64,000 nt of DNA from a virus. Location of the stretch: UHGV virus genome UHGV-0248979; one strand, 5' to 3'. The notes under the pieces were generated by a model that saw only the letters and a list, made by a program, of their open reading frames with translations, was not told the DNA's origin and did no database searches. A program made the position numbers and the translations under genes. The stretch's first letter is position 1. Each line of letters opens with the position of its first letter. Positions 1,472 through 61,514 of the stretch are shown piece after piece.

Positions 1472-2006
1472 ATTCCGTTTTCTGGAAAAATTTTTAGAAA
1501 CTACAAAATTGTTTGGTTGTTATGTGCAAATTAATGGTGAAGACTTCACTGACGATGTTAAACGATTATTAATTCGCCACGGAGTAACTGTAGTTATCCC
1601 AATGTATTGCACAGAACTCACCGATCTTTCAGTTACAGAAATTGAGAAACGGAATCCTGGGTTTGAACAACGTGTACTAGATTTTCCACGACATAAAATC
1701 GTGCTATTACGCAGGGCCTTGCAAGAACCAAGCGTCGAATCTATAACAGCATTAGGATTATCCTTTCCGGGCATCACGATTTACGCAATGCGGAATCCAG
1801 ATTCTACTATCGATGGATTTTACGAGGAACGTGAAGCGTTCCATGATTTAATTTATCCTGAACTTACCGATGAAGAACGACAAGGATTACACATCGATTG
1901 GGATTCTGGTTTTGATAACAAATTTCGCCAAATCGATTTTGAATTGTTAATTGAGCTAGGTTTAGTTAAAGGAGAAGATGAATGTCTGTTATTGACGAAG
2001 GCTTAA
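1434..2006 (+). CDS. hypothetical protein, co-oriented with the radical SAM gene
   Basis: 190-aa ORF overlapping the upstream gene end by about 38 nt; no recognisable motif. Confidence 0.5.
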   Translation: MKPILIHNITKRKFRFLEKFLETTKLFGCYVQINGEDFTDDVKRLLIRHGVTVVIPMYCTELTDLSVTEIEKRNPGFEQRVLDFPRHKIVLLRRALQEPSVESITALGLSFPGITIYAMRNPDSTIDGFYEEREAFHDLIYPELTDEERQGLHIDWDSGFDNKFRQIDFELLIELGLVKGEDECLLLTKA

Positions 2007-2656
2007 CGAAAGAGGAAATACGTCAACGTTATTTCTCACGAGGGCTTCCAATCGATCGCCACGGTAATTACATGGAACGAATTGGCAACGAGGATCGTGG
2101 TCGTGCGGGTTTTTGTGCGCTTCTACACTACAAATTAATCGATGGGTTGGAAGATAAGGCCGCAATCGAACAGATGCGTAGTTACGATATGTCGGAGATT
2201 GAGGCTAATTTCACTCTACAGAAAGCGAAAGAATTTATCGCTGATGTTCTTGAGATTGATTTAGAAGAAATACGAAACAACGTTCGATCAACTGCACGTT
2301 ATATCTATCAAGATGTTCAGAAAATCATGATAGAGATGGAACGTCTTTATGAGGAACAGCGTTATGCGCCCATTAAGTTAAATGGGTGTTATTTCCAAGC
2401 AGACGACGCATCGCGACAGATGTTAAGTCAGTATATTCAGTCTGAAACCGCCCCGGAATATTGGTTGGATACGTCGAATGCACGAATAGAACCGTTCACG
2501 TTGGAACAATGCAAAGAACTGATGGCAGCGATTGTGAAACGTGATCAGAAATTGCATGGGCAGAAAACCGAGCAGAAAAAAGAGCTTCGGCTTTTAGCCG
2601 AGCGGCGTGATTATGATACCATCCGAGCGTACGCTTTGGAAATGGGGATAAAATAA
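1982..2656 (+). CDS. hypothetical protein, last gene of the plus-strand module
   Basis: 224-aa ORF overlapping the previous gene; followed directly by a hairpin terminator. Confidence 0.55.
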   Translation: MSVIDEGLTKEEIRQRYFSRGLPIDRHGNYMERIGNEDRGRAGFCALLHYKLIDGLEDKAAIEQMRSYDMSEIEANFTLQKAKEFIADVLEIDLEEIRNNVRSTARYIYQDVQKIMIEMERLYEEQRYAPIKLNGCYFQADDASRQMLSQYIQSETAPEYWLDTSNARIEPFTLEQCKELMAAIVKRDQKLHGQKTEQKKELRLLAERRDYDTIRAYALEMGIK

Positions 2657-2658
2657 AA

Positions 2659-2706
2659 AAGTACCTACCTCCGTAAAGGAGGTAGGTAAACTTATTATTT
2701 TTTGTT
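2659..2706 (+). terminator. rho-independent terminator
   Basis: Perfect hairpin tacctacctcc-gtaaa-ggaggtaggta followed by a T-run, preceded by an A-run (could act in both directions). Confidence 0.7.
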
Positions 2707-2725
2707 GTAGTAGTTGACTTAGCGA

Positions 2726-3256
2726 TTAAGCAGTAAAGCCGTCAAGTTCACCGTCGGTGGTGGCCAGGTCAATACGATTATCAACAACTTTCGGCGTAAT
2801 TACGAAAGTTGCCATTACACCCGGTTTATAACGGAGGTTCTTTTCAGTAACGGTACAAGTTACCGTACGCAGAGTGACGCTATCGTGTTCGTCTTTCTGG
2901 TCTTCGGTGGTGTACTCAACGTCACCAGGTGCGATAGAGTCGTCAGGTTTTACTTTATTGATGTAAAACTGTAATCGGTCGCGTAGTTCGTTTTCTCCAG
3001 TCCAGAGAGCCAAATCGTCCGTTACCTCAATGCGTCCGACAACGCCAGGTTCCAGACGATCGTAATGCAGTTCGATTGCGCCTTTAAAATTTTCAGACTC
3101 TGTACGTGCGGTCATGGTAACTTTGGTATTTTTATCGCCCTTTTCAAGAGCGACAGGTTGACCAAAAGTTACCTCTTTATCAGTGACCTGATGCGGTAGC
3201 TCTGTGTTAGCAGCATTATAAAGCGCAACTAACATCATCTGGTTAGTAGCTGCCAT
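2726..3256 (-). CDS. paralog family member P1 (putative tail-associated protein); C-terminus ELDGFTA
   Basis: 176 aa; N-terminal pattern shared with five other ORFs in the window; C-terminus shared with 3324..3890. Confidence 0.6.
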   Translation of the reverse strand: MAATNQMMLVALYNAANTELPHQVTDKEVTFGQPVALEKGDKNTKVTMTARTESENFKGAIELHYDRLEPGVVGRIEVTDDLALWTGENELRDRLQFYINKVKPDDSIAPGDVEYTTEDQKDEHDSVTLRTVTCTVTEKNLRYKPGVMATFVITPKVVDNRIDLATTDGELDGFTA

Positions 3257-3307
3257 TATCTTAAATCCTTAAAATGAAAGTTAAAGAAATATCGGGGGAG
3301 GTTACCA

Positions 3308-3316
3308 CCCCCCCCC
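3308..3316 (-). repeat. homopolymeric G9 tract (C9 on the plus strand), intergenic between P2 and P1
   Basis: Nine consecutive C read directly at 3308-3316. Confidence 0.9.
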
Positions 3317-3323
3317 GAATCAA

Positions 3324-3890
3324 TTACTCTTTAGGCGCTGGTGCGGTGAAGCCATCCAGTTCACCTTCCAAACCGCTCAGTGCTACTTTCTCAATAGCCG
3401 GAGGAGTAACTTTATACGTTGCAACAGTACCTGGCAGGAACTTCAGGTGTCCAGTCACAACAGTTACTACGTAAATGGTTTTGCCTTCTTCTTCACGGGA
3501 AATAGTTTGCAGGTCGTTTTCACCGAACTCGTCATCGGTGTACCCCTTCTCAACCATGGCTGCGTTAACTTTTGCCAGGATTTTCGTTGGTGAATCGAAA
3601 TCGGTAGTAGGTGCAGTTACTTCAACTTCACCAACGATGTCGCAGGAAAGACGAGTATAGTGGAATTCTTTCTCGCCTTTGAAGTTCTGGCTTTCTGCCT
3701 TGGCGGTCAGAGTAATTTTAGTGTTGCGGCCAGCTTCTCCGGTGAAGTCAGCGACAGCACTAAAGTCAACATCAGCTACGGTGAGAGCGGAGCTCAGAGA
3801 GCTGTTTTTAGTGTTAATAAGTTCGATAAGCTGCTGTTGAAAAGTTTTAGCCATTGTTTTTACCTCGTAAGTAGTATGGGTGGTTTGCAT
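3324..3890 (-). CDS. paralog family member P2 (putative tail-associated protein)
   Basis: 188 aa; tandem paralog of P1, same ELDGFTA C-terminal motif plus a PAPKE extension. Confidence 0.6.
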   Translation of the reverse strand: MQTTHTTYEVKTMAKTFQQQLIELINTKNSSLSSALTVADVDFSAVADFTGEAGRNTKITLTAKAESQNFKGEKEFHYTRLSCDIVGEVEVTAPTTDFDSPTKILAKVNAAMVEKGYTDDEFGENDLQTISREEEGKTIYVVTVVTGHLKFLPGTVATYKVTPPAIEKVALSGLEGELDGFTAPAPKE

Positions 3891-3985: not shown

Positions 3986-4477
3986 GTGAAAAGTATGATA
4001 AAACGTTTTCTTATTGTTATGGTTGGTGTTTTTTCATTGGCAGGATGTGCCTTACAACCGAATGGTGACGGCCAATTCTCGACTGTGCCGGTGGAGCCAC
4101 ATGATATGGTTATTTACACCTGTATGGGTGCAGAGCAAGATTTTGCAAATTACAAACCTGTCGTCAGCTCGACTAATATAATGTTAGGGTCAGTAACTGT
4201 ACTCGATACTGGTGCTAACTGGGTAGCCACTTGGCCAAACGGCAAGATTGAGTCGCCGCAACTTTATAAAGATTTATTAGGTAAAGTTAATGGGAATATT
4301 GATCCTATCACAGGACAACGTTACTATCGTGTAAATGGCTTACTTTCAAAAACGCCAACGTTTGCGTATTCTACTTTAGAATATAAAACGGGTGATGGTA
4401 AAGGCATTACTTTCTTCCACTGTAAAGAAGGTGTAGCGTCTGACACTGGAACAATGCTCCATCCTGCGGAACAATAA
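3986..4477 (+). CDS. putative lipoprotein (candidate superinfection-exclusion or moron gene)
   Basis: Signal peptide with lipobox (FSLAG-C); likely true start is the ATG near 3995 with an AAAGGTG RBS; isolated plus-strand gene with its own terminator. Confidence 0.6.
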   Translation: MKSMIKRFLIVMVGVFSLAGCALQPNGDGQFSTVPVEPHDMVIYTCMGAEQDFANYKPVVSSTNIMLGSVTVLDTGANWVATWPNGKIESPQLYKDLLGKVNGNIDPITGQRYYRVNGLLSKTPTFAYSTLEYKTGDGKGITFFHCKEGVASDTGTMLHPAEQ

Positions 4478-5867: not shown

Positions 5868-6458
5868 TCATTTTACTAACCCCGCCTTCACTACATAATC
5901 CGGCATTTCCCTGTACACGCGTCCGTACCAGCCGTAAGCGAATTTTTCATTCTTCTTACGCTTTTCGGAGATTTCCGTGTAGTAGGTTACCTGATGTGAG
6001 ATTAACGCAAAGATTAAGATGCCTAATCCCTCGCCTTTACGGTAATTCAGATAAGCATTCAGAGCACCTAGTGTTTTAGGTCCCATACCACCATCGGTGT
6101 CAATATCTGCGTAAAGTTTCCCTTCGTTATTTAAAACGTTGAGAATACGTTGTAACGATTTCACACAGTTAACACGGCCAGAGTTAATACCAAAATCAAA
6201 CATCCTGTCGGCGAGTATCGGCGAGATAGCGAAAATCTCATCGAGTTTAAGTTTCTTCCACCAACCACGATCGTAAATATCAAACGCTTGCGCACGGGTC
6301 AGATCTTTCATTCTTCCTTTGTACCCGTATTCGCGTGCAGTTGTCAGTGTTACCCCGTGACAGGTTTCCCCACCTTTATCGTCAGGGTCATTGACGTACC
6401 CACCCTCTAAATCTGTTTTTGATTCAATAATACCTTCTTTAGTCCAACGTTCGGCCAT
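5868..6458 (-). CDS. endolysin, glycoside hydrolase family 108-like with peptidoglycan-binding domain
   Basis: N-terminal EGGYVNDPDDKGGETCHGVT signature typical of GH108 lysozymes; C-terminal region consistent with a PG-binding module. Confidence 0.75.
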   Translation of the reverse strand: MAERWTKEGIIESKTDLEGGYVNDPDDKGGETCHGVTLTTAREYGYKGRMKDLTRAQAFDIYDRGWWKKLKLDEIFAISPILADRMFDFGINSGRVNCVKSLQRILNVLNNEGKLYADIDTDGGMGPKTLGALNAYLNYRKGEGLGILIFALISHQVTYYTEISEKRKKNEKFAYGWYGRVYREMPDYVVKAGLVK

Positions 6459-15356: not shown

Positions 15357-15392
15357 TATAAAAACCGTAGGATGGACTTAGTCCATCCTACG
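15357..15392 (-). terminator. rho-independent terminator after the tailspike gene
   Basis: Hairpin ccgtaggatggac-ta-gtccatcctacgg followed by a T-run. Confidence 0.7.
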
Positions 15393-15399
15393 GTTTAAA

Positions 15400-17520
15400 T
15401 TAAATAACTACCCAGCTTTTACCATCGGAACCAATCTGCATTAGCGTAATACTTTCACTGGTATCAATGGGTTTGGCAAGACCTTCTGTCCCACTCTTTG
15501 GAGTGATGAGAACGTTTGAATTTTCCGGTTTAACGGTGATCTTACCAGCCTTATTTGCCACGATCTGAATATTTCTGCCCACGCTATATTCTAGATCAGG
15601 AATAGTAAGTTGGCCGCCACGGTTGGTGGGTGGGAAATACACATAAGACGACACATCTTCCTCAGATAACACTATGCTACCAGAATCACGATTGACCGAG
15701 ATCTCAAACTTAGAAATATCGATATCATAGGCAGTAACTTTCGTAATATCCGTCAGAACCAATTCGTTCAAATCGGTCTTAGCTGGACTGTTCGCCAGAT
15801 CAAATGGAGTACCATTCGTACCGTCCAGCACAGGTGTGACTGTGGTTTTATTGGCACCAGGATAAATGATTTCAAGCGTATGCCAGTTATTATCGTACGC
15901 ACCAAAAGTTCCTAATTTCGCATTTTGCTTTTTATGATGCATCAGATTAAGATTCGTAGCGTCGGTCTGTAAGAAAAAAGACATTAGGTACGGGTTCGTC
16001 TCAGCCACACCAGCGTCAGCAAATGTAGTACCAGAAGGTAGGTCGGACGCGGAAATACGCCAATAAAGTCCTAATCCGAAACGATCTGCTGCTAAATCAC
16101 CTTTTAGTCTAAAAGTAACGGTCAGACGTCCACCGTAACGTATCATGTCCGCAGCAGATGTCATTGACTTAGTTACATTCCAAGGTTTCATCTTTACAGC
16201 CTTTCTTAATTCGACGAAATGCCCGTTTCCATCCTCAGAATCTTGCACGGTTACGTTACAATCAACGATATTGTTCCAACCTTGCCCTTTCAGGGAACCA
16301 TCCCCACGACGTCCGTTATAACCCACAGACTCTACTAATGGGGTATAGCTTCTTACCACATTCTTATTGTCTTTGGAGCTCTTAGTGTCGTTCTTCGTCA
16401 GGAACATTGCACCAATCGCTGTTCTTGATAATATCTCGGCAGCTATTCTCTCTGAGATAATACCGCGTCGTGCCCAAGAACTGAAATGGCTATTCCTTGT
16501 TTCAGACGTCCAGTTTTTAACAGTACGGGAGGCAGCACCGTAATAGGCCGCACCAGTGATATCAGGATCGTCAGTGGGATCATTAGTCGGTACACGTTGG
16601 CCATTATCGTCGTACATGAATGGAACAAAAAAGATATTTTTTTGTTCATTGTTACGATAATTACCGTATACGGTTTCATATTGGGCAGGATATTTTTCCT
16701 TCCAATAATAGGTAGTGTCCCCGCAGATCCATGGTACTTCGGCGGTGTCGTACTCGGGCATCTGAGAGAGATGGTCAGAGAGATCAGTTCGGAAACGCTC
16801 TACCATTGCGTTAAATAACGCTGGTTGTTGTGCGTATTGTACTTTAGTCAGATCATACTCTCCCTGCATCCACACTACAGCCAAGAGTTTATTTTTAGGA
16901 TTAACTTCTAGAGCTTTTTTGGTCCGGCTAACTAAATCTTTATAAAGCGGTTTCTCCACCCCCCATAGCATTGACGACTCAGTGGCTCCTGTGGCTTCAT
17001 CGAAGGTACCTTCTGCACCACCCGTGAAAGCAGAACCGCCGCGTGCGCAGGGTACTAGTAAGATACCGGCGTTCTTAGGAATATACGGGAGAAGACGCTT
17101 CGCGATATGTAGACCTTGACCCACACATCCGTATTCACCTTTGCTCAAATTGGCATTGGGATGCGAGTATTTGGACATATCTTGCACGTCGTGCAGACAG
17201 TGATCCGCTGGAATGACGTCGTTATATTTACAATCAGCCCCATTAGGCGTTACCTTCGCACGGCGCGCCATCTGTTTAATTCGCGGATCGGGAGCGTCCA
17301 ACGTCGCCGGTAGAGGCAACCCTTCACCATAACTCATCGCATTAGATTGCCCGGCTATAGGAATCACGAAGTAATACTCCGGCTCCGTCGTGCCCTGAAG
17401 TTTTGCAATATCAATTTTATATTCTTTTTCTTCCTTAGAAAGAAGAACTAACGCACCTTTGAGATCGCCAGAGAAATTGTCGAGTTCATGGATACGTTTC
17501 TTTCCAATTGGCTGACTCAT
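15400..17520 (-). CDS. tailspike/tail fibre protein with SASA/SGNH-type carbohydrate esterase domain
   Basis: 706 aa; N-terminal segment homologous to the 1479-aa fibre N-terminus; GQSNAMSY motif typical of sialate O-acetylesterase-like SGNH hydrolases. Confidence 0.65.
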   Translation of the reverse strand: MSQPIGKKRIHELDNFSGDLKGALVLLSKEEKEYKIDIAKLQGTTEPEYYFVIPIAGQSNAMSYGEGLPLPATLDAPDPRIKQMARRAKVTPNGADCKYNDVIPADHCLHDVQDMSKYSHPNANLSKGEYGCVGQGLHIAKRLLPYIPKNAGILLVPCARGGSAFTGGAEGTFDEATGATESSMLWGVEKPLYKDLVSRTKKALEVNPKNKLLAVVWMQGEYDLTKVQYAQQPALFNAMVERFRTDLSDHLSQMPEYDTAEVPWICGDTTYYWKEKYPAQYETVYGNYRNNEQKNIFFVPFMYDDNGQRVPTNDPTDDPDITGAAYYGAASRTVKNWTSETRNSHFSSWARRGIISERIAAEILSRTAIGAMFLTKNDTKSSKDNKNVVRSYTPLVESVGYNGRRGDGSLKGQGWNNIVDCNVTVQDSEDGNGHFVELRKAVKMKPWNVTKSMTSAADMIRYGGRLTVTFRLKGDLAADRFGLGLYWRISASDLPSGTTFADAGVAETNPYLMSFFLQTDATNLNLMHHKKQNAKLGTFGAYDNNWHTLEIIYPGANKTTVTPVLDGTNGTPFDLANSPAKTDLNELVLTDITKVTAYDIDISKFEISVNRDSGSIVLSEEDVSSYVYFPPTNRGGQLTIPDLEYSVGRNIQIVANKAGKITVKPENSNVLITPKSGTEGLAKPIDTSESITLMQIGSDGKSWVVI

Positions 17521-17523
17521 CTA

Positions 17524-18036
17524 CTACTCTCCAAAAGTTAAGATTTTATTGTCAAACGTCAACACGACAGAATCATCACCGATGCCACACGGTGTTTCAT
17601 CTGGGCCGAAAACCACCACGGAGAACTGTCCTTTATAAGCGATGGAATTCGGAGCGATGCTAAGCGTTACCGCGTCTTTACCTACCGTGAACGACTGGTC
17701 GGTTAAATCGTCGGTTTGTAAGTTAGCACCACAAACGGCATTGACGGATTCGATAAGATCGTGTGCATTAAACCCTTCACCTCTTACTTTTACCAGAATA
17801 GGTTGTTGGTTTAACCACCGCTCTGCGGTTAAACGGTTGTAGTAGATTTGCAACGTTCTGTTTCCAGGACGTTTAATCTTTACAATGGCAGTGGAGTCAC
17901 GATCCATTTCATCACTGGTTTTTACGTCACTGACTTCAACCTCGTTCTCTTGCAAGTCAAGTTGGAGGTCATGGTTAACCAGTGAAATAACCATGTTAAG
18001 TGAAGTTAGTGATAAATCTGGTGTGAATTTTTCCAC
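17524..18036 (-). CDS. paralog family member P5, translationally coupled to the tailspike gene
   Basis: 170 aa; GTG start preceded by an AGGAGG RBS; stop 3 nt before the tailspike ATG. Confidence 0.6.
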   Translation of the reverse strand: MEKFTPDLSLTSLNMVISLVNHDLQLDLQENEVEVSDVKTSDEMDRDSTAIVKIKRPGNRTLQIYYNRLTAERWLNQQPILVKVRGEGFNAHDLIESVNAVCGANLQTDDLTDQSFTVGKDAVTLSIAPNSIAYKGQFSVVVFGPDETPCGIGDDSVVLTFDNKILTFGE

Positions 18037-18090: not shown

Positions 18091-18100
18091 CCCCCCCCCC
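18091..18100 (-). repeat. homopolymeric G10 tract (C10 on the plus strand), 5' of P5
   Basis: Ten consecutive C read directly at 18091-18100. Confidence 0.9.
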
Positions 18101-18134: not shown

Positions 18135-18642
18135 TTAGCTAATTCTCAAATCACGCAGTGCGCCTGTCGATTTCATCACGTTTTGGAACGCAGCGCTGAT
18201 GTTATTAGTCCAGTAATAATGCTGTCCGTTAATAACCTGCTGATAGGCCAGCGCGCAGGTGTTACCACCTAAATTTACGGTAATGTTAGAGGCTCTGCCT
18301 CCTTGTAAGTAAACCGCTAAAGTAGGCTTTGCGTTGGCAACTATCGTCGTTAACTGTAACTCAATACCTACTAAAGTTCCCACCCCGCAGTTACCCGCGT
18401 TTTGAATGGTTCCCTGATTTTTCTGGTTTAACGGCCAGCTTGGTCCTACTGCGCCCCATTTCTTACCTAAAGAATCGCTATATGCAGCGGTTGCAATTTT
18501 ACAGCCCATAGATCGTCCCACCATTTGACTCATCATAAAAGGTCTACCCAATCCTAATTTACTACCAGCAGCGCTCATCCATTGTTCGCCCGTTTCGTTC
18601 TTGGCCGAAGAACCGACCCACGAACCGGTTACCCCCCCCCAT
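18135..18642 (-). CDS. adhesin-like tail fibre-associated protein, paralog B; 5' end put out of frame by a G9 tract
   Basis: ORF track gives 18135..18578. The same frame is open upstream (…GSWVGSSAKNETGEQW) and matches paralog A's N-terminus; an ATG with AGGAG RBS at 18642-18640 is +1 out of frame across the G9 run. Confidence 0.6.
18632..18640 (-). repeat. homopolymeric G9 tract overlapping the start codon of adhesin-like paralog B
   Basis: Nine consecutive C at 18632-18640; the minus strand reads AT-GGGGGGGGG-TAACC. Confidence 0.9.
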
Positions 18643-18654
18643 CGCGATCTCCTG

Positions 18655-18885
18655 TTAAGATTTTCTACATGTTATTGAATCGAAAGCACCACGCCCAACC
18701 CAACGCCAATTATAATGATGATCAGCTTTATAAAGTGTGTATCTGCCCTGCTTTTTTACGTCGAAAATATTGATCGTAGTCTCTTCATTACCCAGCTTAG
18801 CTGTGCCGTAACATACAGGTTCGGGTAGTTGTTGACATCCACTTACTGTAAGCAATGCGAAACCCAGTAAAACTTTTCTTAACAT
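18655..18885 (-). CDS. small lipoprotein between the two adhesin-like genes (candidate receptor-masking protein)
   Basis: 76 aa; signal peptide with lipobox (LLTVSG-C); mature part about 59 aa with further Cys. Confidence 0.6.
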   Translation of the reverse strand: MLRKVLLGFALLTVSGCQQLPEPVCYGTAKLGNEETTINIFDVKKQGRYTLYKADHHYNWRWVGRGAFDSITCRKS

Positions 18886-18895
18886 CTTTCTGTCC

Positions 18896-19441
18896 TTAGA
18901 CTACACTTATTGAAATTGTTGCACCGTTCTGATTAAATAACCAGTTGGTTGCCGTCTTAGCCTCATAGCGCCGGACGCCGTTACTGTAGGAGTACGGTAG
19001 AAAAGTAATCTTCGTTCCGTTAAACGAAAGCGTAATATTCTGATTTGGTCCATTGGTTAGGGCCATGTAGATAATACCAGTATTTTGTACTTGGCTAAGA
19101 TGTGTGACGCTACAACCCAAGATCGAACCTGACACCGAACCGGCCGCATTTTGTGTTTGCACACGATTCGATACTGTAGAACCAGCACCCGTTGTTGTAG
19201 AGTTGTTCGAATACCCCCCATACGTATTTGTAATAGGAACCCACTGCGTGTTCGTAGCCTGCACCAAAACAACATAGGTTGATCGGCCTACAACGAGTTT
19301 AAGATCCTCTACGCTACGCCCGACCATCTGCGACATGTTAAATGGCGTGCTCAGTTTAAGCTTATTACCTGCCACACTCATCCACTCCTGACCGGTTACT
19401 GCCTTTGCTGAGCTTCCAACCCAGCCGGATGCTACCCCCAT
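18896..19441 (-). CDS. adhesin-like tail fibre-associated protein, paralog A
   Basis: 181 aa, Gly/Ser/Thr/Asn-rich; ATG with GGAGGA RBS just downstream of the fibre gene terminator. Confidence 0.65.
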   Translation of the reverse strand: MGVASGWVGSSAKAVTGQEWMSVAGNKLKLSTPFNMSQMVGRSVEDLKLVVGRSTYVVLVQATNTQWVPITNTYGGYSNNSTTTGAGSTVSNRVQTQNAAGSVSGSILGCSVTHLSQVQNTGIIYMALTNGPNQNITLSFNGTKITFLPYSYSNGVRRYEAKTATNWLFNQNGATISISVV

Positions 19442-19451
19442 AAATCCTCCA

Positions 19452-19481
19452 AACTAAAATAGGGGGATTACTCCCCCTATC
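19452..19481 (-). terminator. hairpin terminator after the tail fibre gene
   Basis: Hairpin tagggggagtaatccccctat followed by a T-rich run on the minus strand. Confidence 0.6.
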
Positions 19482-19482
19482 T

Positions 19483-22400
19483 TTAATTCCCCTTGAGTTC
19501 TTTAAGCTCTTGGCGAAGAGTTTTCATGCCTTCTACTAACAACGCAATAACACCATTGTAATTTAGACGTAAACGTTTTTCGCCTGAAATGGCATCGTCG
19601 TCCTCGGACACAAGTTCAGGTAACGCTTCTAATGCGTCCTGAGCAATTAGACCTACAGAAGTCTGCCAACCGTCATCAGGATGCTGAATTTCGTACAAAT
19701 AACCGGTTAGTAACTCTAACCGATCCAAAGCTTTATCCAGCTTCACCAGATTACGTTTGTTACGACGGTCAGAACGAATCTGTACGTCGTTAAACGAACC
19801 GTTACCGTTGCCAGTAACGTTATGTCCAAAGTTTACTTGGCCGTTAGAATTATTAAAAGACAACGGGCGTAATCCGTTCCAGGAACCCGCTGCGGCTTGT
19901 CCGGCGTCGGTTACTAAGAAATAGGTATTGGCACCGTCGTTACGTAAAATAAAACCGTAGGTACCGTAAGCGATTCGAAAATCAGGGTATTTAGTGGCCA
20001 ATTTACCATTAACGGTTAAATCACCGCCTACAGTACCGCCCCCTGACGGTAACGCGCCCACTTCCGCAGCAGTTGGCTTGTTTCTCGTATTGTAAGCACG
20101 ACGCCAGCCTGGTGAGTATCCATCGCCGTTAAATACGTAGATAAACTCCGCATTAGTGAGTGCTCCGCCGACGCTCGTCGTTGTGGCGGTCGTTATACGG
20201 ATCGTGTAGTTGTTTGTGCTGTTGCCGTTACTAATGACTTCTATAACGGCCCCAGCTAACGGAATGACACCACAACCCGTCTCGCTGTGAGGTATGGACG
20301 CACTGGCGGCATAAGCCCACGCACAGCGAGCAACCCACGATCTTGTGGTAAATGCGCCGTTATTTTTCAATAACGTCACTAGCTGTGCTGTAGTTATTGC
20401 ACCGCCATTAGCGCCAGTTTCTAACCAACCACTAGGTGATGCCGGACAACCTATTTCGGCTGGCCCTAACGCTATATTTCTAGTGCCATCAAACGCAATA
20501 CCATTGATGGTTCTTGCGGTTTGCAACTTTGTTGCCGTGGCTGCGTTTCCGGTGGTCGACTGATTCCCTGTTTGGTTTACTCCAGGTAAACTGATGTCTT
20601 TAGTACCATCAAAAGCTACGCCACCTATATTTCGAGCAGTCTGTAGCTTAGTCGCTGTCGCCGCATTCCCCGTAGTCGATTGGTTACCGGTTTGGTTTAC
20701 ACCAGGAAGATTAACGTCTTTTGTCCCATCGAACACCACACCGCCGATCTTACGTGCGGTTTGTAACTTAGTAGCGGTCGCTGCATTACCTGTCGTATTC
20801 TGGTTGCCTTGCTGGTTAACGCCCGGTAAATTGATATCACCTGTACCGTCAAAGCTAACGCCTCCGATCCTGCGAGCGGTTTTCAGTTTCGTCGCGGTAG
20901 CGGCGTTGCCGGTAGTATCCTGATTACCTGTGGCATTTACACCAGGAATGCTATCACGGGCAGTATAAACTTGTGCCCAATCTGACCACGGCGCATCAGC
21001 AGTATCACGTCGACTACGAATATAAACGGGTGCGTGCGCACCGCTCGTCCCCGACCATCCGATTAACAGTTCCCCTTCGCCTAGCGCAGCAGAACCGCCC
21101 AAATGCAGTAAGTTACCATAAGCGGTTGGATAACCGTTATTGTAAACTTCGTACATCTGAATACCGGGTGTACCTTTGTTTGATCCAGTCAGTGCAGTAA
21201 CACGTCCACGTCCTACCAACGTGTTGATATTGATGTCTCTAGACCCATCAAATTTCACACCGTTGATGTTTCGAGCCGTTTGTAATTTGGTTGCGGTTCC
21301 CGCGTTCCCAGAGGTGTTTTGATTACCCTGTTGGTTTACACCAGGGAGGCTAATGTCTCCGCTACCGTCGAAACTTACACCGCCGATTAAACGGGCTGTT
21401 TTCAGTTTCGTTGCCGTAGCAGCATTGCCTGTTAACTCACCTGATAACCCTTTTGCAAAGGTCTGTTTTTCTGCCCACGTATGCGCTGCATTCAATACGG
21501 GCATCTGGCGGCTAGTAATAGTACGTTTACCCTTTTCACCAGCGACGCGAACAGCAAAGAAGCGATAGTTAGCAGTAGACACTGTACCACGCCAGACCAA
21601 CATACTCCGGCCAGTACCGGTGTCCTCCGACGCCCCTACAAGAATAGTAACCAAGTTACCGTCGATAACACCCCAATCCATTCCCGCAGGAATGTTTTTC
21701 ATGGTATTCAATGGTGTACTTATCATCTGGCCAGGAACGAAGTCGAAGGTTTGCCAGTCTAACGGATCTACCTTAGCAGCAACCCCACCGATCCCTAAAG
21801 CCAACGGGAGTGAATAGGATGTGAAAATCTCTCGCCATTCGCTCCAGGCATTTCCTGTACGAATTCGTTGGAACTTGCGACCTTTCGAAGTTGCGCCTGT
21901 ACCGTATGTGGTATAATTTTGTTCAACACCTGAACCGTCTAAGCGTAAGGTAACTTCGCAAACGCCTAGCAAGGTTGCGCCAGCAGAGTCTGTTAACGGA
22001 CCGTCTGTAGCCTCGCCGGTAACACTAAAGCGACCCGGTTTAGTTAAGTCGTTAAAGCTACCCTTATAGTAGGCACCGTCTACCTGATACCCAACCTGAA
22101 TCCAATCTTCCCACTGCGGATTAGACGAATCCCAAGTCGCAGTCAAACCACGGACATACATCGTACCACGACGAGTGGTGTAACGTTGTAAACGTCCATA
22201 AAGACCGCCTTCCATGACTTCTAATACGCCTTGCGCATTACCGCCCTCTTCAGGATAATGTCTGTCGAACACCGCTAACGAACTGGACGAGTTACGCCAG
22301 TTACCCATGTGCTCAGCGCCGCCTAAGGAGTTCAGATCGATCGATGTAGATAACGGGCGTACACCTGTAGTTACCATTCTCCACGGTGACCACGGGCCAT

Positions 22401-23922
22401 TAGTTCCGTTCCACGCGGCTGACAACATGCGGTTGTACACGTTACCATTACGGCAGGTAAAACGTTGCGCTCCACTGTAGTTGCCCGCTTTATACACTTC
22501 TAGATAACCTACCGCACCGTCTTCCGGGAAGTGTTTTGCTATTGATGCGTTTGTTGATGTCGACTTGGACCATGTTCCTGTGTAATTGGCATCTGGAGCA
22601 AATGTGTTAATATCAGCATCTGCGGGCATTTCACCACGGAAACGCAGATAGGTATCAGGAGATAGACCAATATTGCGAGCAAAGGTTTCTTTATTGGGGA
22701 TATCAGCACCGTTAGAGTTTTTCTGTAACGCAGAGTTCGCTTTATCTACAGTGGCTTTTAATCCCAAGAAATTGATGATATCCGCAGTTGTCCCTTTTGC
22801 TAACAAGGTTCTGGCGGTTTCTGTAAAGTCAGTTAACCCGACTTTATTAGTGCCAGTGAAATAAGGGAGCTTGTTTGCTGCGGTTGTGACTGCGGCAATA
22901 GCAGTAAGTAGTGGACTGATAGGTTGCTTCTGTGCAAGTTTCTCAGTAATCGTTGTTGCGAAGTTAGGGTCATTACCTAACGCCGTAGCTAATTCCGCTA
23001 AGGTATCTAACGTCTCAGGTGAAGAACCAACCAATTCCGCGATAGCAGCACGCACCCAGGCCGTTGTGGAGATGCTCGTGTCGTTCGAGTCCTTTGGGGG
23101 CGTTGGTGATGTCGGGTTACCCGTAAAATTCGGCGAATGTTTATCGGCTTTTAACTGTAATTCGTCGTTCAGCTGTTTAACCGTGGACGGTGTGGCAGCC
23201 TCCGTCACGGATTCGCTAGTCAGGGTATTGTTAAGTTTAACGATACCTTTACCGGTCGTACTAGCGTCAACTAAACCCTGTGCAGCGATTTTCTCCGCAC
23301 GCAGAGCGGCTGACTCCGAGCGTGTAGCTGCGCCTTCTGAGCTTTCTTTATCTTTCGTAACCTGCGCAGCAACCTTCTCCACCGCGCCCTTACTGGCCTC
23401 AATTGAAGCCGCAGTATTTGCGATACTGGTAGCGGTCTGTTGAACCTGTCCGGCCCGTTGCGTAACCGTTTCTGCTTTCTTAGTTACATCAGCCGCTACA
23501 GCTGTCACAGATTGTTCGCTTGCGGCGACAGCTTGAGCCTTCTCATTTACTGATTGTGAAACAGTATCTACGGCAGTTTTTGCTGCTAAAACTTCAGCGT
23601 GTTTTTTGTTAACCTCCGCAGTTTTAGTGGCGACGGTTCCCGCTTGCTCATTAACTGTGGAAGCTAAAGTGGTGGTCTGTTGCTTCGCTGTTTCTGCTAA
23701 ATCTTTAGCTTTCGTAGCTTCTGTTGCGGACTGTTGTGATTTGGCCGCAGCCGTTTGTGCATCAGCAACCGCACTTCTGACGGTGTCAATGTCCGCAACG
23801 ATCTCGCGGACTGGTAACTTATAATCTTTTTCGTCTTTCGAAAAAAGTAAAACGCCTTCACCGATATCCCCGGTGTACGGATGTAAGTCGTGTAAACGTA
23901 TTTTCTTTACCGCTTTAGCCAT
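19483..23922 (-). CDS. long tail fibre protein with C-terminal intramolecular chaperone (peptidase S74-like) domain
   Basis: 1479 aa; Ala/Thr/Gln-rich N-terminal region; six ~40-aa repeats (GNQxTTGNAATATKLQTAR.IGGV.FDG); C-terminal SDRRNKRNL...LVEGMKTL motif typical of self-cleaving chaperone domains. Confidence 0.85.
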   Translation of the reverse strand: MAKAVKKIRLHDLHPYTGDIGEGVLLFSKDEKDYKLPVREIVADIDTVRSAVADAQTAAAKSQQSATEATKAKDLAETAKQQTTTLASTVNEQAGTVATKTAEVNKKHAEVLAAKTAVDTVSQSVNEKAQAVAASEQSVTAVAADVTKKAETVTQRAGQVQQTATSIANTAASIEASKGAVEKVAAQVTKDKESSEGAATRSESAALRAEKIAAQGLVDASTTGKGIVKLNNTLTSESVTEAATPSTVKQLNDELQLKADKHSPNFTGNPTSPTPPKDSNDTSISTTAWVRAAIAELVGSSPETLDTLAELATALGNDPNFATTITEKLAQKQPISPLLTAIAAVTTAANKLPYFTGTNKVGLTDFTETARTLLAKGTTADIINFLGLKATVDKANSALQKNSNGADIPNKETFARNIGLSPDTYLRFRGEMPADADINTFAPDANYTGTWSKSTSTNASIAKHFPEDGAVGYLEVYKAGNYSGAQRFTCRNGNVYNRMLSAAWNGTNGPWSPWRMVTTGVRPLSTSIDLNSLGGAEHMGNWRNSSSSLAVFDRHYPEEGGNAQGVLEVMEGGLYGRLQRYTTRRGTMYVRGLTATWDSSNPQWEDWIQVGYQVDGAYYKGSFNDLTKPGRFSVTGEATDGPLTDSAGATLLGVCEVTLRLDGSGVEQNYTTYGTGATSKGRKFQRIRTGNAWSEWREIFTSYSLPLALGIGGVAAKVDPLDWQTFDFVPGQMISTPLNTMKNIPAGMDWGVIDGNLVTILVGASEDTGTGRSMLVWRGTVSTANYRFFAVRVAGEKGKRTITSRQMPVLNAAHTWAEKQTFAKGLSGELTGNAATATKLKTARLIGGVSFDGSGDISLPGVNQQGNQNTSGNAGTATKLQTARNINGVKFDGSRDININTLVGRGRVTALTGSNKGTPGIQMYEVYNNGYPTAYGNLLHLGGSAALGEGELLIGWSGTSGAHAPVYIRSRRDTADAPWSDWAQVYTARDSIPGVNATGNQDTTGNAATATKLKTARRIGGVSFDGTGDINLPGVNQQGNQNTTGNAATATKLQTARKIGGVVFDGTKDVNLPGVNQTGNQSTTGNAATATKLQTARNIGGVAFDGTKDISLPGVNQTGNQSTTGNAATATKLQTARTINGIAFDGTRNIALGPAEIGCPASPSGWLETGANGGAITTAQLVTLLKNNGAFTTRSWVARCAWAYAASASIPHSETGCGVIPLAGAVIEVISNGNSTNNYTIRITTATTTSVGGALTNAEFIYVFNGDGYSPGWRRAYNTRNKPTAAEVGALPSGGGTVGGDLTVNGKLATKYPDFRIAYGTYGFILRNDGANTYFLVTDAGQAAAGSWNGLRPLSFNNSNGQVNFGHNVTGNGNGSFNDVQIRSDRRNKRNLVKLDKALDRLELLTGYLYEIQHPDDGWQTSVGLIAQDALEALPELVSEDDDAISGEKRLRLNYNGVIALLVEGMKTLRQELKELKGN
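20470..21450 (-). repeat. tandem ~117-nt coding repeats (phage tail fibre repeat units) inside the fibre gene
   Basis: Near-identical nucleotide units in two blocks (4 + 2 copies) separated by an insert; boundaries approximate. Confidence 0.7.
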
Positions 23923-24127: not shown

Positions 24128-24724
24128 TCATGTAGCCGGGTTTTCTTCAGCGGAGTCTCCATCTGGAACCTCAAATGTAAGAACAGCATCGTCACCAATA
24201 CAGAAGATTGCATCTTCTTCGTTTGCTAATGCCCGTTCAGTTTTATCAAATAACGTCACCATAAACGCATTCACCCACGCTGGAGAATCGTCAGCAACGT
24301 TGACAGCAATAGGATCGTTACCTAAAGTGATATCTGAAGCATGTAAATCCTCGGGTTGTAAGTTCGTTCCGCAGAATTCATTTACAACACCTAAAATGTC
24401 ACGAAGGTTGTCTTCGGTACCATCTAACGAAATCAAAATAGGTTCGGACGCTAACACTTTGTCCGCATCCAAGCGGTCGTAATAAACAACTACAGAAGCA
24501 CCATCAGGTTTCCTGATTTTTGTAATCTCTGTCAGTGTGTTACGACGCGACGTAGTCGGGGACAGGTTTGCCATAGTGTTGCTAATACGAATTTCGCTTA
24601 GAGACAACCGTGAACCGTTATCGTGGTTGATTAAAGCGACCACCAATTCGGCTGAGGACAGACTTAAATCAGGTACGTATGTGGCCACTATAGCCTCCCA
24701 GATCAAAAAAAAAATAAAAAACAT
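24128..24724 (-). CDS. paralog family member P6, upstream of the tail fibre gene
   Basis: N-terminal region (VPDLSLSSAELVVALINHDNG) homologous to P5; true start probably a GTG near 24681 with GGGAGG RBS (the ORF-track N-terminus translates a poly-T run). Confidence 0.55.
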   Translation of the reverse strand: MFFIFFLIWEAIVATYVPDLSLSSAELVVALINHDNGSRLSLSEIRISNTMANLSPTTSRRNTLTEITKIRKPDGASVVVYYDRLDADKVLASEPILISLDGTEDNLRDILGVVNEFCGTNLQPEDLHASDITLGNDPIAVNVADDSPAWVNAFMVTLFDKTERALANEEDAIFCIGDDAVLTFEVPDGDSAEENPAT

Positions 24725-61315: not shown

Positions 61316-61370
61316 CTTTTATGCTCCAATTAATAAAAAAATTAAGGGCACCCGAAGGTGCCTTATACAT

Positions 61371-61514
61371 TAACCACGACCAGTGCACTGTGCAACGGAA
61401 TTACCGTTGTCGATGCAAGTGTCGTAGCCTTTGTCGATATCCAGGTACAGGCAACCCAGAACAACAGCGATAACAACAGCGAAGATAGCTTTTTTGTGTT
61501 TTACAGAAATCATG
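61371..61514 (-). CDS. small signal-peptide/lipoprotein-like peptide (47 aa), unannotated
   Basis: ATG with AGGAG RBS directly downstream of promoter copy 4; MISVKHKKAIFAVVIAVVLG-C then a Cys-containing ~27-aa mature part; optimal-looking codons. Confidence 0.5.

What the first reader, a model, noticed from the sequence alone, without database searches (positions are those of the whole stretch)
18655..18885. Small lipoprotein inside the tail fibre operon: candidate receptor-masking superinfection exclusion protein
A 76-aa ORF with a clear lipoprotein signal peptide and lipobox sits between the two adhesin-like genes, directly downstream of the tail fibre gene. In T5 (Llp) and in T1-like and lambdoid phages (Cor) a small lipoprotein next to the receptor-binding genes blocks the outer-membrane receptor. 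The position here matches that arrangement.
Basis: inference. Interest (0 to 1): 0.55.

Follow-up and report, generated by a model that had tools for sequence, protein, structure and literature searches.

The report
Cor receptor-blocking lipoprotein in jumbo phage
The small gene is a genuine member of the known Cor family of phage lipoproteins, which block an outer-membrane receptor from inside the cell; what is unusual is that it sits in a roughly 225-kb jumbo phage, paired with a tail-fibre adhesin it appears to have arrived with.

Summary
The 76-aa ORF at 18655-18885 (-) is real. It has a textbook lipoprotein signal peptide: R3 and K4, a hydrophobic core, lipobox VSGC with Cys17, and Gln at +2.

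The genome is an SPN3US/phiEaH2-like jumbo phage. Three sets of relatives lack cor. In every assessable case this Cor subclade sits downstream of one particular gp38-like adhesin subtype: Stx2-86, SSU5, 12 of 12 IMG/VR loci, and here. That points to a portable adhesin-plus-blocker module.

Which receptor it blocks, and whether it excludes anything, is untested. FhuA or another TonB-dependent transporter is the best guess.

By-product: the second adhesin gene starts with a poly-G tract of 8 to 11 G in otherwise identical genomes. Only 8 and 11 are in frame, so this is a candidate phase-variable adhesin.

The parts
18655..18885 (-). cor homologue: 76-aa prolipoprotein. Signal peptide is aa 1-16 (18838..18885). 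The lipidated Cys17 codon is 18835..18837. The mature part is 60 aa with Cys25, Cys73 and an NWRW motif.
18893..18897 (-). Shine-Dalgarno AAGGA for cor. It overlaps the TAA stop of adhesin 1, so the two genes are translationally close-coupled.
   Evidence: read from sequence
18896..19441 (-). Adhesin 1: a 181-aa gp38-like tail-fibre tip adhesin of type 1, the partner of cor in the transferable module.
   Evidence: Pfam Gp38_N E = 2.4e-20; phrog_1121; 69% identical to the adhesin directly upstream of cor in Stx2 phage 86 and 47.5% by tblastn to that of SSU5 (MAFFT alignment); upstream of Cor in 12 of 12 assessable IMG/VR loci
18135..18642 (-). Adhesin 2 (type B): a second gp38-like adhesin with the same N-terminal fibre-attachment domain and a different C-terminal domain. 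In this window the ATG at 18642..18640 is out of frame with the body of the gene (ORF 18135..18578).
   Evidence: Gp38_N partial hit and phrog_1121; intact 168- and 169-aa versions in L002 and L006; 67% identity to adhesin 1 over the first 43 aa only
18632..18640 (-). Poly-G tract (9 G here, including the G of the ATG) at the start of adhesin 2. It is 8, 9, 10 or 11 G in otherwise identical genomes; 8 and 11 are in frame.
   Evidence: contig counts OFF 54, ON 12 + 6
18649..18654 (-). Shine-Dalgarno AGGAGA for adhesin 2, immediately after the cor stop codon (18655..18657).
   Evidence: read from sequence
19483..23922 (-). 1479-aa long tail-fibre gene with an intramolecular chaperone at its C-terminus. 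It is the first gene of the run, and the adhesins attach to its tip.
   Evidence: Pfam Phage_fiber_2, Gp34_trimer, Peptidase_S74
17524..18036 (-). 170-aa DUF7941 virion structural protein, the next gene in the same run.
   Evidence: Pfam DUF7941, phrog_2935
15400..17520 (-). 706-aa protein with a fibre-like N-terminus plus SASA/SGNH esterase and DUF6645 domains. It is the last gene of the run.
   Evidence: Pfam SASA, DUF6645; phrog_143
15362..15396 (-). Terminator-like hairpin (16 bp stem followed by a T-run) that closes the fibre-adhesin-cor gene run.

Best explanation
The ORF encodes a Cor-family prolipoprotein.

Shown here: it has a signal-peptidase-II type signal peptide and lipobox. It is homologous to Cor. 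It keeps the family's conserved Cys pair and NWRW motif. It is predicted to fold like T5 Llp.

[quoted passage not shown] T5 Llp, a protein with the same fold, binds the periplasmic face (the plug) of FhuA. That binding makes extracellular loops fold inward, so the phage's receptor-binding protein can no longer dock (PMC9586334). Cor of phi80, N15, HK022 and T1 inactivates FhuA.

Inferred: this protein does the same to an outer-membrane receptor, most likely FhuA or another TonB-dependent transporter. The target is probably the receptor used by the type-1 gp38-like adhesin encoded 10 nt upstream, because the two genes travel together between unrelated phages.

Inferred: cor sits inside the fibre/adhesin gene run with no gap or terminator before it, so it is probably made late together with the fibres. 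Its main benefits would then be two. It would stop new virions being wasted on the lysing cell, debris and vesicles. It would also shield infected or carrier-state cells from superinfection by phages that use the same receptor.
For: Family membership: NF047972 at 69 bits against a cut-off of 31, E = 2.6e-19; phrog_1119 at E = 1.3e-25; 61.5%, 54%, 44% and 40% identity to Cor of Stx2-86, SSU5, N15 and HK022/phi80; conserved C17, C25, C73, G32, NWRW and F68.

Lipoprotein signal.

Module: the order fibre, type-1 adhesin, cor is seen in Stx2 phage 86, in SSU5 and in 12 of 12 assessable IMG/VR loci.

Cor is absent wherever the type-1 adhesin is absent: the E. ludwigii relative L001, L010, L012 and L013, and plasmid p09EL50.

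The ORF is intact, with the exact same sequence, on 96 contigs, and only single-residue variants occur.

Mechanism of Llp and its relation to Cor: PMC9586334 and bioRxiv 10.64898/2026.03.26.714494.
Against: There are no functional data. The receptor of the type-1 adhesin is unknown, and I know of no gp38-type adhesin that binds a TonB-dependent transporter.

Within the Cor/Llp superfamily, sequence similarity does not track receptor. T5-like homologues at 27-33% identity are annotated Cor or receptor-blocking protein, and from memory T5-like phages as a group use FhuA, BtuB or FepA.

Characterised Cor proteins are prophage morons or genes of small siphophages. Late co-expression with the fibres is inferred from gene spacing only. 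Promoters of phiKZ-like phages are not covered by the sigma-70 scan, which found no more sites than chance.

The genomes were retrieved by exact Cor sequence, so their identity says nothing about selection.
Confidence: 0.7

Rival explanations
1. Competitor exclusion only. The protein blocks FhuA, as its closest characterised homologues do, to keep out T1-, T5- and phi80-like phages. That receptor has nothing to do with this jumbo phage's own adhesins.
For: The closest experimentally characterised homologues (N15, HK022, phi80) are from FhuA-dependent phages. Known gp38-type adhesins bind porins, OmpA, Tsx or FadL rather than TonB-dependent transporters (my own knowledge).
Against: This Cor subclade is strictly linked to one adhesin subtype across a podovirus, a phage-plasmid and a jumbo myovirus. 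It is absent with other adhesin types. That pattern is what a matched adhesin/blocker pair would show.
Confidence: 0.17
2. Hitch-hiker. cor came in with the adhesin cassette by recombination and is carried along without any role in a virulent jumbo phage.
For: The cassette is clearly horizontally acquired. Relatives lack it, and there is no nucleotide variation from which to judge selection.
Against: The ORF is intact on at least 96 contigs, with signal peptide, lipobox, Cys pair, motif and a well-placed SD. It has persisted at 54-61% identity alongside the adhesin in three very different phage backgrounds.
Confidence: 0.09
3. A lysis lipoprotein (an o-spanin like Rz1), or an exported fibre-assembly or virion factor.
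For: It is a small lipoprotein. In SSU5, cor lies next to the holin/endolysin/spanin genes.
Against: It matches Cor models, not spanin models. There is no i-spanin partner, holin or endolysin next to it here. It is not proline-rich. An exported lipoprotein cannot take part in cytoplasmic fibre assembly.
Confidence: 0.03

Closest known systems
Cor of Stx2-converting phage 86, Shigella phage POCJ13 and related Stx phages (annotated, not characterised)
   Same: 61.5% identity. The gene order is the same: fibre, then type-1 gp38-like adhesin (69% identical), then cor, with only about a dozen bases between adhesin and cor.
   Different: Those are roughly 60-kb temperate short-tailed phages. Here the host genome is a roughly 225-kb jumbo phage with a contractile-tail-type structural set, and a second adhesin follows cor.
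Cor of phi80, N15, HK022, mEp167 and T1 (characterised; excludes FhuA-dependent phages by inactivating FhuA)
   Same: Same family by the NCBIfam equivalog model and by PHROG. 40-44% identity to N15, HK022 and phi80; about 25% to T1. It is a lipoprotein encoded next to host-recognition genes.
   Different: In those siphophages, to my knowledge, the neighbouring receptor-binding protein is the central tail fibre (J-type) that binds FhuA. Here the neighbour is a gp38-type tip adhesin of a long fibre, and the receptor is unknown.
Llp of phage T5 (PDB 8A60, bound to FhuA)
   Different: Sequence similarity is not significant (profile E = 0.08). From my own knowledge, llp is an early gene transcribed opposite to the receptor-binding gene, whereas this gene is co-oriented inside the fibre gene run.
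Rtp45 of phage Rtp (blocks LptD)
   Same: A small exclusion protein encoded beside the receptor-binding gene that changes the receptor's conformation (PMC12685063).
   Different: No homology to Rtp45 was tested or seen here. It serves only as a reminder that such proteins need not target a TonB-dependent transporter.
Hypermutable poly-G tracts in receptor-binding genes of Campylobacter Fletchervirus phages (for the side finding on adhesin 2)
   Same: A G-run inside a receptor-binding gene whose length decides whether the protein is made.
   Different: The host here is enterobacterial and the phage is a jumbo phage. The tract sits right at the start codon, and the gene is one of two alternative tip adhesins. 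The Campylobacter example is recalled from memory; one search lists related papers only.

Membership tests
Cor superinfection-exclusion lipoprotein (NCBIfam NF047972 lamb_exclu_cor; PHROG 1119) | Sequence match to the family model above its curated cut-off | tested here: met
   69 bits against a cut-off of 31, E = 2.6e-19, covering 6-75 of 76 aa; phrog_1119 E = 1.3e-25
Cor superinfection-exclusion lipoprotein (NCBIfam NF047972 lamb_exclu_cor; PHROG 1119) | Small (about 75-80 aa) prolipoprotein with a signal-peptidase-II signal and a lipobox Cys | tested here: met
   MLRKVLLGFALLTVSG-C17 passes the PS51257 rule. SignalP and LipoP were not available.
Cor superinfection-exclusion lipoprotein (NCBIfam NF047972 lamb_exclu_cor; PHROG 1119) | Conserved mature-domain residues: a Cys pair (presumed disulphide) and the NW[RQ]W motif | tested here: met
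   C25, C73, G32, N59-W60-R61-W62 and F68 align with conserved columns of 16 family members
Cor superinfection-exclusion lipoprotein (NCBIfam NF047972 lamb_exclu_cor; PHROG 1119) | Encoded next to the phage's host-recognition genes | tested here: met
   10 nt downstream of a gp38-like adhesin and 12 nt upstream of another
Cor superinfection-exclusion lipoprotein (NCBIfam NF047972 lamb_exclu_cor; PHROG 1119) | Expression excludes FhuA-dependent phages and inactivates FhuA | not testable with these tools
   Needs plating, adsorption and ferrichrome/colicin M/albomycin assays
Llp (T5 lytic conversion lipoprotein) | Significant sequence similarity to T5 Llp | tested here: not met
   The family profile against PDB sequences gives 8a60_B at E = 0.08, mostly over the signal peptide
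Llp (T5 lytic conversion lipoprotein) | Llp fold | tested here: met
o-spanin (Rz1-like lysis lipoprotein) | Lies in a lysis cassette, within or next to an i-spanin gene, and matches spanin models | tested here: not met
   The neighbours are adhesins. There were no spanin hits in PHROGs, Pfam or NCBIfam.
Phase-variable (hypermutable homopolymer) receptor-binding gene; applies to adhesin 2, not to cor | A homopolymer inside the coding sequence whose length varies between otherwise identical genomes and switches the frame | tested here: met
   8, 9, 10 and 11 G in 7 genomes with identical flanks. In-frame products are on 12 + 6 contigs and the out-of-frame call is on 54. Caveat: two other 10-nt homopolymers also vary by one base.
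Phase-variable (hypermutable homopolymer) receptor-binding gene; applies to adhesin 2, not to cor | Within-population switching that changes host range | not testable with these tools
   Needs read-level data and plating on receptor mutants

The most novel reading that the evidence does not exclude
The type-1 gp38-like adhesin and Cor form a portable 'key plus lock-jammer' cassette that moves between podoviruses, phage-plasmids and jumbo myoviruses. On this reading the adhesin recognises the very receptor that Cor shuts down, possibly a TonB-dependent transporter, which would be new for gp38-type adhesins.

In this jumbo phage the cassette was inserted in front of a resident second adhesin that is switched on and off by a poly-G tract. 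A minority of virions would then carry an alternative key that is not affected by the phage's own (or kin) Cor block. That would be a bet-hedging way around self-exclusion and receptor loss.
Probability: 0.2. Interest if true: 0.65.

Novelty: new member of a known kind. Interest (0 to 1): 0.4.

Why it matters
Cor/Llp-type receptor blockers are known from lambdoid prophages, T1-like phages and T5-like phages. In the 50,697-record phage collection, none of the roughly 100 Cor matches I could list lies in a genome above 115 kb. Finding one in a jumbo phage shows that this exclusion strategy is also used by very large phages.

The strict linkage to one adhesin subtype offers a practical handle. 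Identifying the receptor of either partner predicts the other. The pair could also be used to assign receptors to a widespread but uncharacterised class of gp38-like adhesins found in Stx phages, SSU5-like phage-plasmids and jumbo phages.

This matters for phage therapy with jumbo phages of E. coli, Shigella and Salmonella, because a Cor-expressing infection or carrier state could cross-protect cells against cocktail partners that use the same receptor.

The candidate phase-variable second adhesin, if real, would extend poly-G host-range switching beyond Campylobacter phages.

Tried and rejected
- Pfam has no model that hits the ORF.
- The search for homologous proteins returned only a 99% variant.
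- A single-protein scan of IMG/VR found nothing. The 16-sequence alignment was too diverse for a locus scan. A 4-sequence alignment worked.
- The sigma-70 promoter scan found no more sites than shuffles (18 against 19.0 +/- 4.8) and none on the minus strand just upstream of cor. It is in any case uninformative for a phiKZ-like phage with its own RNA polymerases.
- Synonymous/non-synonymous counting was uninformative. The cor gene is nucleotide-identical in all seven genomes, which were selected by exact Cor sequence.
- Literature searches found no paper describing Cor in a jumbo phage or a gp38-adhesin/Cor module.
- I considered whether the frameshift in adhesin 2 is a simple sequencing error. 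Four different lengths across assemblies, plus in-frame versions on 18 contigs, argue for real instability. But two other 10-nt homopolymers also vary by one base, so technical noise is not excluded.
- Two further long G/C runs are not within coding sequence. The run at 3308-3316 is the stem of a terminator-like hairpin, and the run at 18091-18100 is intergenic.

Full report
**1. The observation**

The minus-strand ORF 18655..18885 encodes 76 aa: MLRKVLLGFALLTVSGCQQLPEPVCYGTAKLGNEETTINIFDVKKQGRYTLYKADHHYNWRWVGRGAFDSITCRKS. Its start is the first ATG after a stop.

AAGGA lies 7 nt upstream and overlaps the TAA of the preceding gene, so the intergenic distance is 10 nt. The stop codon is followed at once by AGGAGA-N6-ATG of the next gene.

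The N-terminus has two basic residues, a 10-residue hydrophobic core and V-S-G-C17. It passes the PROSITE PS51257 rule as I coded it. Only 8 of 1405 possible reading frames of at least 40 aa in the window pass, and several of those are alternative starts of real genes. Residue +2 is Gln. By the established Lol sorting rule (Asp at +2 retains a lipoprotein in the inner membrane), that predicts an outer-membrane lipoprotein.

The ORF lies between two genes that both carry the Pfam Gp38_N domain.

**2. What it is**

Pfam has nothing for it. Two other libraries name it Cor:
- PHROG 1119, 'Cor superinfection exclusion protein', E = 1.3e-25.
- The NCBIfam equivalog model NF047972, 'phage exclusion lipoprotein Cor', 69 bits against a curated cut-off of 31.

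tblastn against 50,697 phage records gives the following identities:

| Phage | Identity |
|---|---|
| Stx2 phage 86, POCJ13 and related Stx phages | 61.5% |
| SSU5 | 54% |
| N15 | 44% |
| HK022, phi80 and the mEp phages | 40% |
| T1-like Cor | 24-27% |
| T5-like 'receptor-blocking' proteins | 27-33% |

An exhaustive HMMER scan of 1.84 billion representatives found only 14 relatives at E <= 0.001. In their alignment the lipid Cys17, Cys25, Cys73, Gly32, the NWRW motif and Phe68 fall in conserved columns.

**3. The genome around it**

The window comes from a jumbo phage. Its 764-aa major head protein is 78-80% identical to those of Erwinia phages Asesino and phiEaH2, Escherichia phage EC001 and Salmonella phage SPN3US. 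Other large genes hit PHROGs typical of that group.

The exact Cor protein is on 96 contigs, many of them 225-227 kb metagenome scaffolds that are 96-99.8% identical to the window over 12 kb.

The gene run on the minus strand is:
- fibre (19483..23922);
- adhesin 1 (18896..19441);
- cor;
- adhesin 2 (18135..18642);
- DUF7941 structural protein (17524..18036);
- 706-aa SASA-esterase protein (15400..17520);
- a strong terminator-like hairpin at 15396..15362.

Nothing resembling a terminator separates adhesin 1 from cor. On this basis I infer, but have not shown, that cor is co-expressed late with the fibres.

**4. Cor travels with one adhesin subtype**

The two adhesins share only the first roughly 43 residues, the fibre-attachment domain, at 67% identity. 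They differ in the rest.

Adhesin 1 groups with Stx2-86 gp22 (69%) and SSU5_022 (47.5% by tblastn; 51% in the alignment). Adhesin 2 groups with the single adhesin of the SSU5-like plasmid p09EL50 and with the second adhesin of the Enterobacter ludwigii relative.

Every type-1 adhesin I could examine has cor downstream:
- Stx2 phage 86, 13 nt apart.
- SSU5, two genes apart.
- 12 of 12 assessable IMG/VR loci of this Cor subclade. One of these, L022, is a 107-kb contig with the same adhesin-cor-adhesin order as here.

Every place with only other adhesin types lacks cor:
- The closest DNA relative, a 222-kb circular 'plasmid' of E. ludwigii. It has fibre, a 261-aa T2-type GP38, a type-B adhesin and DUF7941.
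- A Salmonella-associated contig with the same layout.
- Two contigs with fibre, type-B adhesin and DUF7941.
- p09EL50.

So in this lineage a two-gene unit, type-1 adhesin plus cor, occupies the first adhesin slot. The 135 nt that encode the shared N-terminal domain of adhesin 2 are 96% identical to SSU5-like phage-plasmids of E. coli O104:H4 and Shigella sonnei. This suggests that this conserved adaptor sequence is where recombination happens.

**5. How it most likely works**

This part rests on established knowledge of the family and on inference.
- T5 Llp is periplasmic and binds a non-native conformation of the FhuA plug. It makes loops EL7 and EL8 fold inward over the site where the phage's receptor-binding protein docks. 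The authors argue that Cor proteins work the same way and that other TonB-dependent transporters could be targeted likewise (PMC9586334).
- Cor proteins functionally inactivate FhuA (cited).
- I therefore propose that this lipoprotein binds the periplasmic face of an outer-membrane receptor and closes it to phage adsorption.
- The linkage in section 4 makes the receptor of adhesin 1 the most likely target.
- The closest characterised homologues make FhuA the single best guess, at roughly 0.35. Another TonB-dependent transporter comes next.
- Because the gene sits in a late structural run, protecting progeny from debris and vesicles may matter as much as blocking superinfection.

None of this has been tested.

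**6. Rivals**

- It may block FhuA purely against competitor phages.
- It may be a passenger of the adhesin cassette.
- Spanin or virion roles are contradicted by the model matches, the neighbours and the export signal.

Details and refutation tests are in the rival list.

**7. Comparison and novelty**

It is a member of the Cor family by every feature that could be tested. It belongs to the same fold superfamily as Llp but is not an Llp by sequence.

Three things are new about the setting:
- a jumbo phage rather than a lambdoid, T1-like, T5-like or SSU5-like element;
- a gp38-type tip adhesin as partner rather than, as I recall it, a J-type central fibre or pb5;
- the flanking second adhesin.

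I found no open-access paper describing any of this. I rate it a new member of a known kind, of moderate interest.

**8. By-product: a candidate phase-variable second adhesin**

The ATG of adhesin 2 (18642..18640) runs straight into a G-tract, which is the C-run 18632..18640 on the plus strand. The window has 9 G, which puts the start codon out of frame with the body of the gene. Six near-identical genomes have 8, 10, 10, 9, 11 and 10 G with identical flanks.

Lengths of 8 and 11 give intact 168- and 169-aa adhesins beginning MGGV and MGGGV. Across the protein collection, the in-frame forms are on 12 and 6 contigs, and the truncated 124-aa call is on 54. The E. ludwigii homologue starts ATG GCT GTA GCA and has no tract.

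Runs of 9 or more G or C are expected 0.14 times in this window. Three occur, and all are poly-G on the coding (minus) strand.

Caveat: the intergenic G10 at 18091-18100 and the A/T 10-mer at 24705-24714 also differ by one base among the assemblies, while runs of 7 or fewer never do. Assembly noise at long homopolymers therefore cannot be excluded without reads. The adhesin tract does show the widest range.

Noticed in passing
window 18632-18642 (minus strand); L002-L007 around 6244-6256: A poly-G tract directly after the ATG of the second gp38-like adhesin is 8, 9, 10 or 11 G in otherwise identical genomes, and only 8 and 11 are in frame. The in-frame proteins are on 18 contigs and the truncated call on 54. 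This is a candidate phase-variable alternative adhesin.
   Followed up: partly
window 18091-18100 and 24705-24714: An intergenic G10 (minus strand), between adhesin 2 and the DUF7941 gene, and an A/T 10-mer also vary by one base among the seven genomes. Shorter runs do not vary. Either all long homopolymers slip in this phage, or the assemblies are noisy there.
   Followed up: partly
window 3308-3316: A third 9-nt G/C run forms the stem of a terminator-like hairpin (CGGGGGGGGGTGGTAACCTCCCCCG followed by T-rich sequence), just after the gene 3324..3890 (-).
   Followed up: partly
window 15400-17520 (minus strand): The 706-aa protein with a fibre-like N-terminus and SASA/SGNH esterase domain carries many amino-acid changes among near-identical genomes (for example 22 non-synonymous against 11 synonymous, and 30 against 26), while its neighbours are invariant. 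In relatives L010, L012 and L013 a 206-aa gene sits at this position, and the E. ludwigii locus (L001) has no DNA match there. It looks like a second fast-evolving host-recognition gene.
   Followed up: partly
window 20481-21449 within the fibre gene 19483-23922: The fibre contains about 120-nt (40-aa) repeats of the type GNQ.TTGNAATATKLQTAR.IGGV.FDG..D..LPGVNQ. One genome (L002) encodes a fibre exactly 40 aa shorter (1439 against 1479 aa), which suggests copy-number change of a repeat.
   Followed up: no
L001 (NZ_CP134650.1), and cluster members: The nearest relative of this jumbo phage is deposited as a circular 222-kb 'plasmid' of Enterobacter ludwigii. Adhesin-2 relatives on contigs of about 225 kb carry names taken from Shigella flexneri and Salmonella enterica isolate records. 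This suggests carrier-state persistence of these phages in cultured isolates.
   Followed up: no
window 18486-18620: The 135 nt that encode the N-terminal fibre-attachment domain of adhesin 2 are 96% identical to SSU5-like phage-plasmids of E. coli O104:H4 and Shigella sonnei, although the rest of the genomes are unrelated. This is a likely recombination handle for swapping adhesins.
   Followed up: partly
L022 (IMGVR_UViG_3300045988_158219, 107 kb), locus coordinates 1484-3642: An SSU5-sized viral contig has the same order: type-1 adhesin, Cor, then a second Gp38_N adhesin. The adhesin-cor-adhesin layout is therefore not unique to the jumbo phage.
   Followed up: no
window 3995-4477 (+) and 61370-61513 (-): Two further ORFs pass the lipoprotein rule: a 160-aa protein (MIKRFLIVMVGVFSLAGC..., phrog_9559) and a 47-aa protein (phrog_8574). 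Both are of unknown function.
   Followed up: partly
window 19461-19477: A G+C-rich hairpin (GGGGGAGTAATCCCCCT) sits in the 41-nt gap between the fibre gene and adhesin 1. It could lower expression of the adhesin-cor genes relative to the fibre.
   Followed up: no
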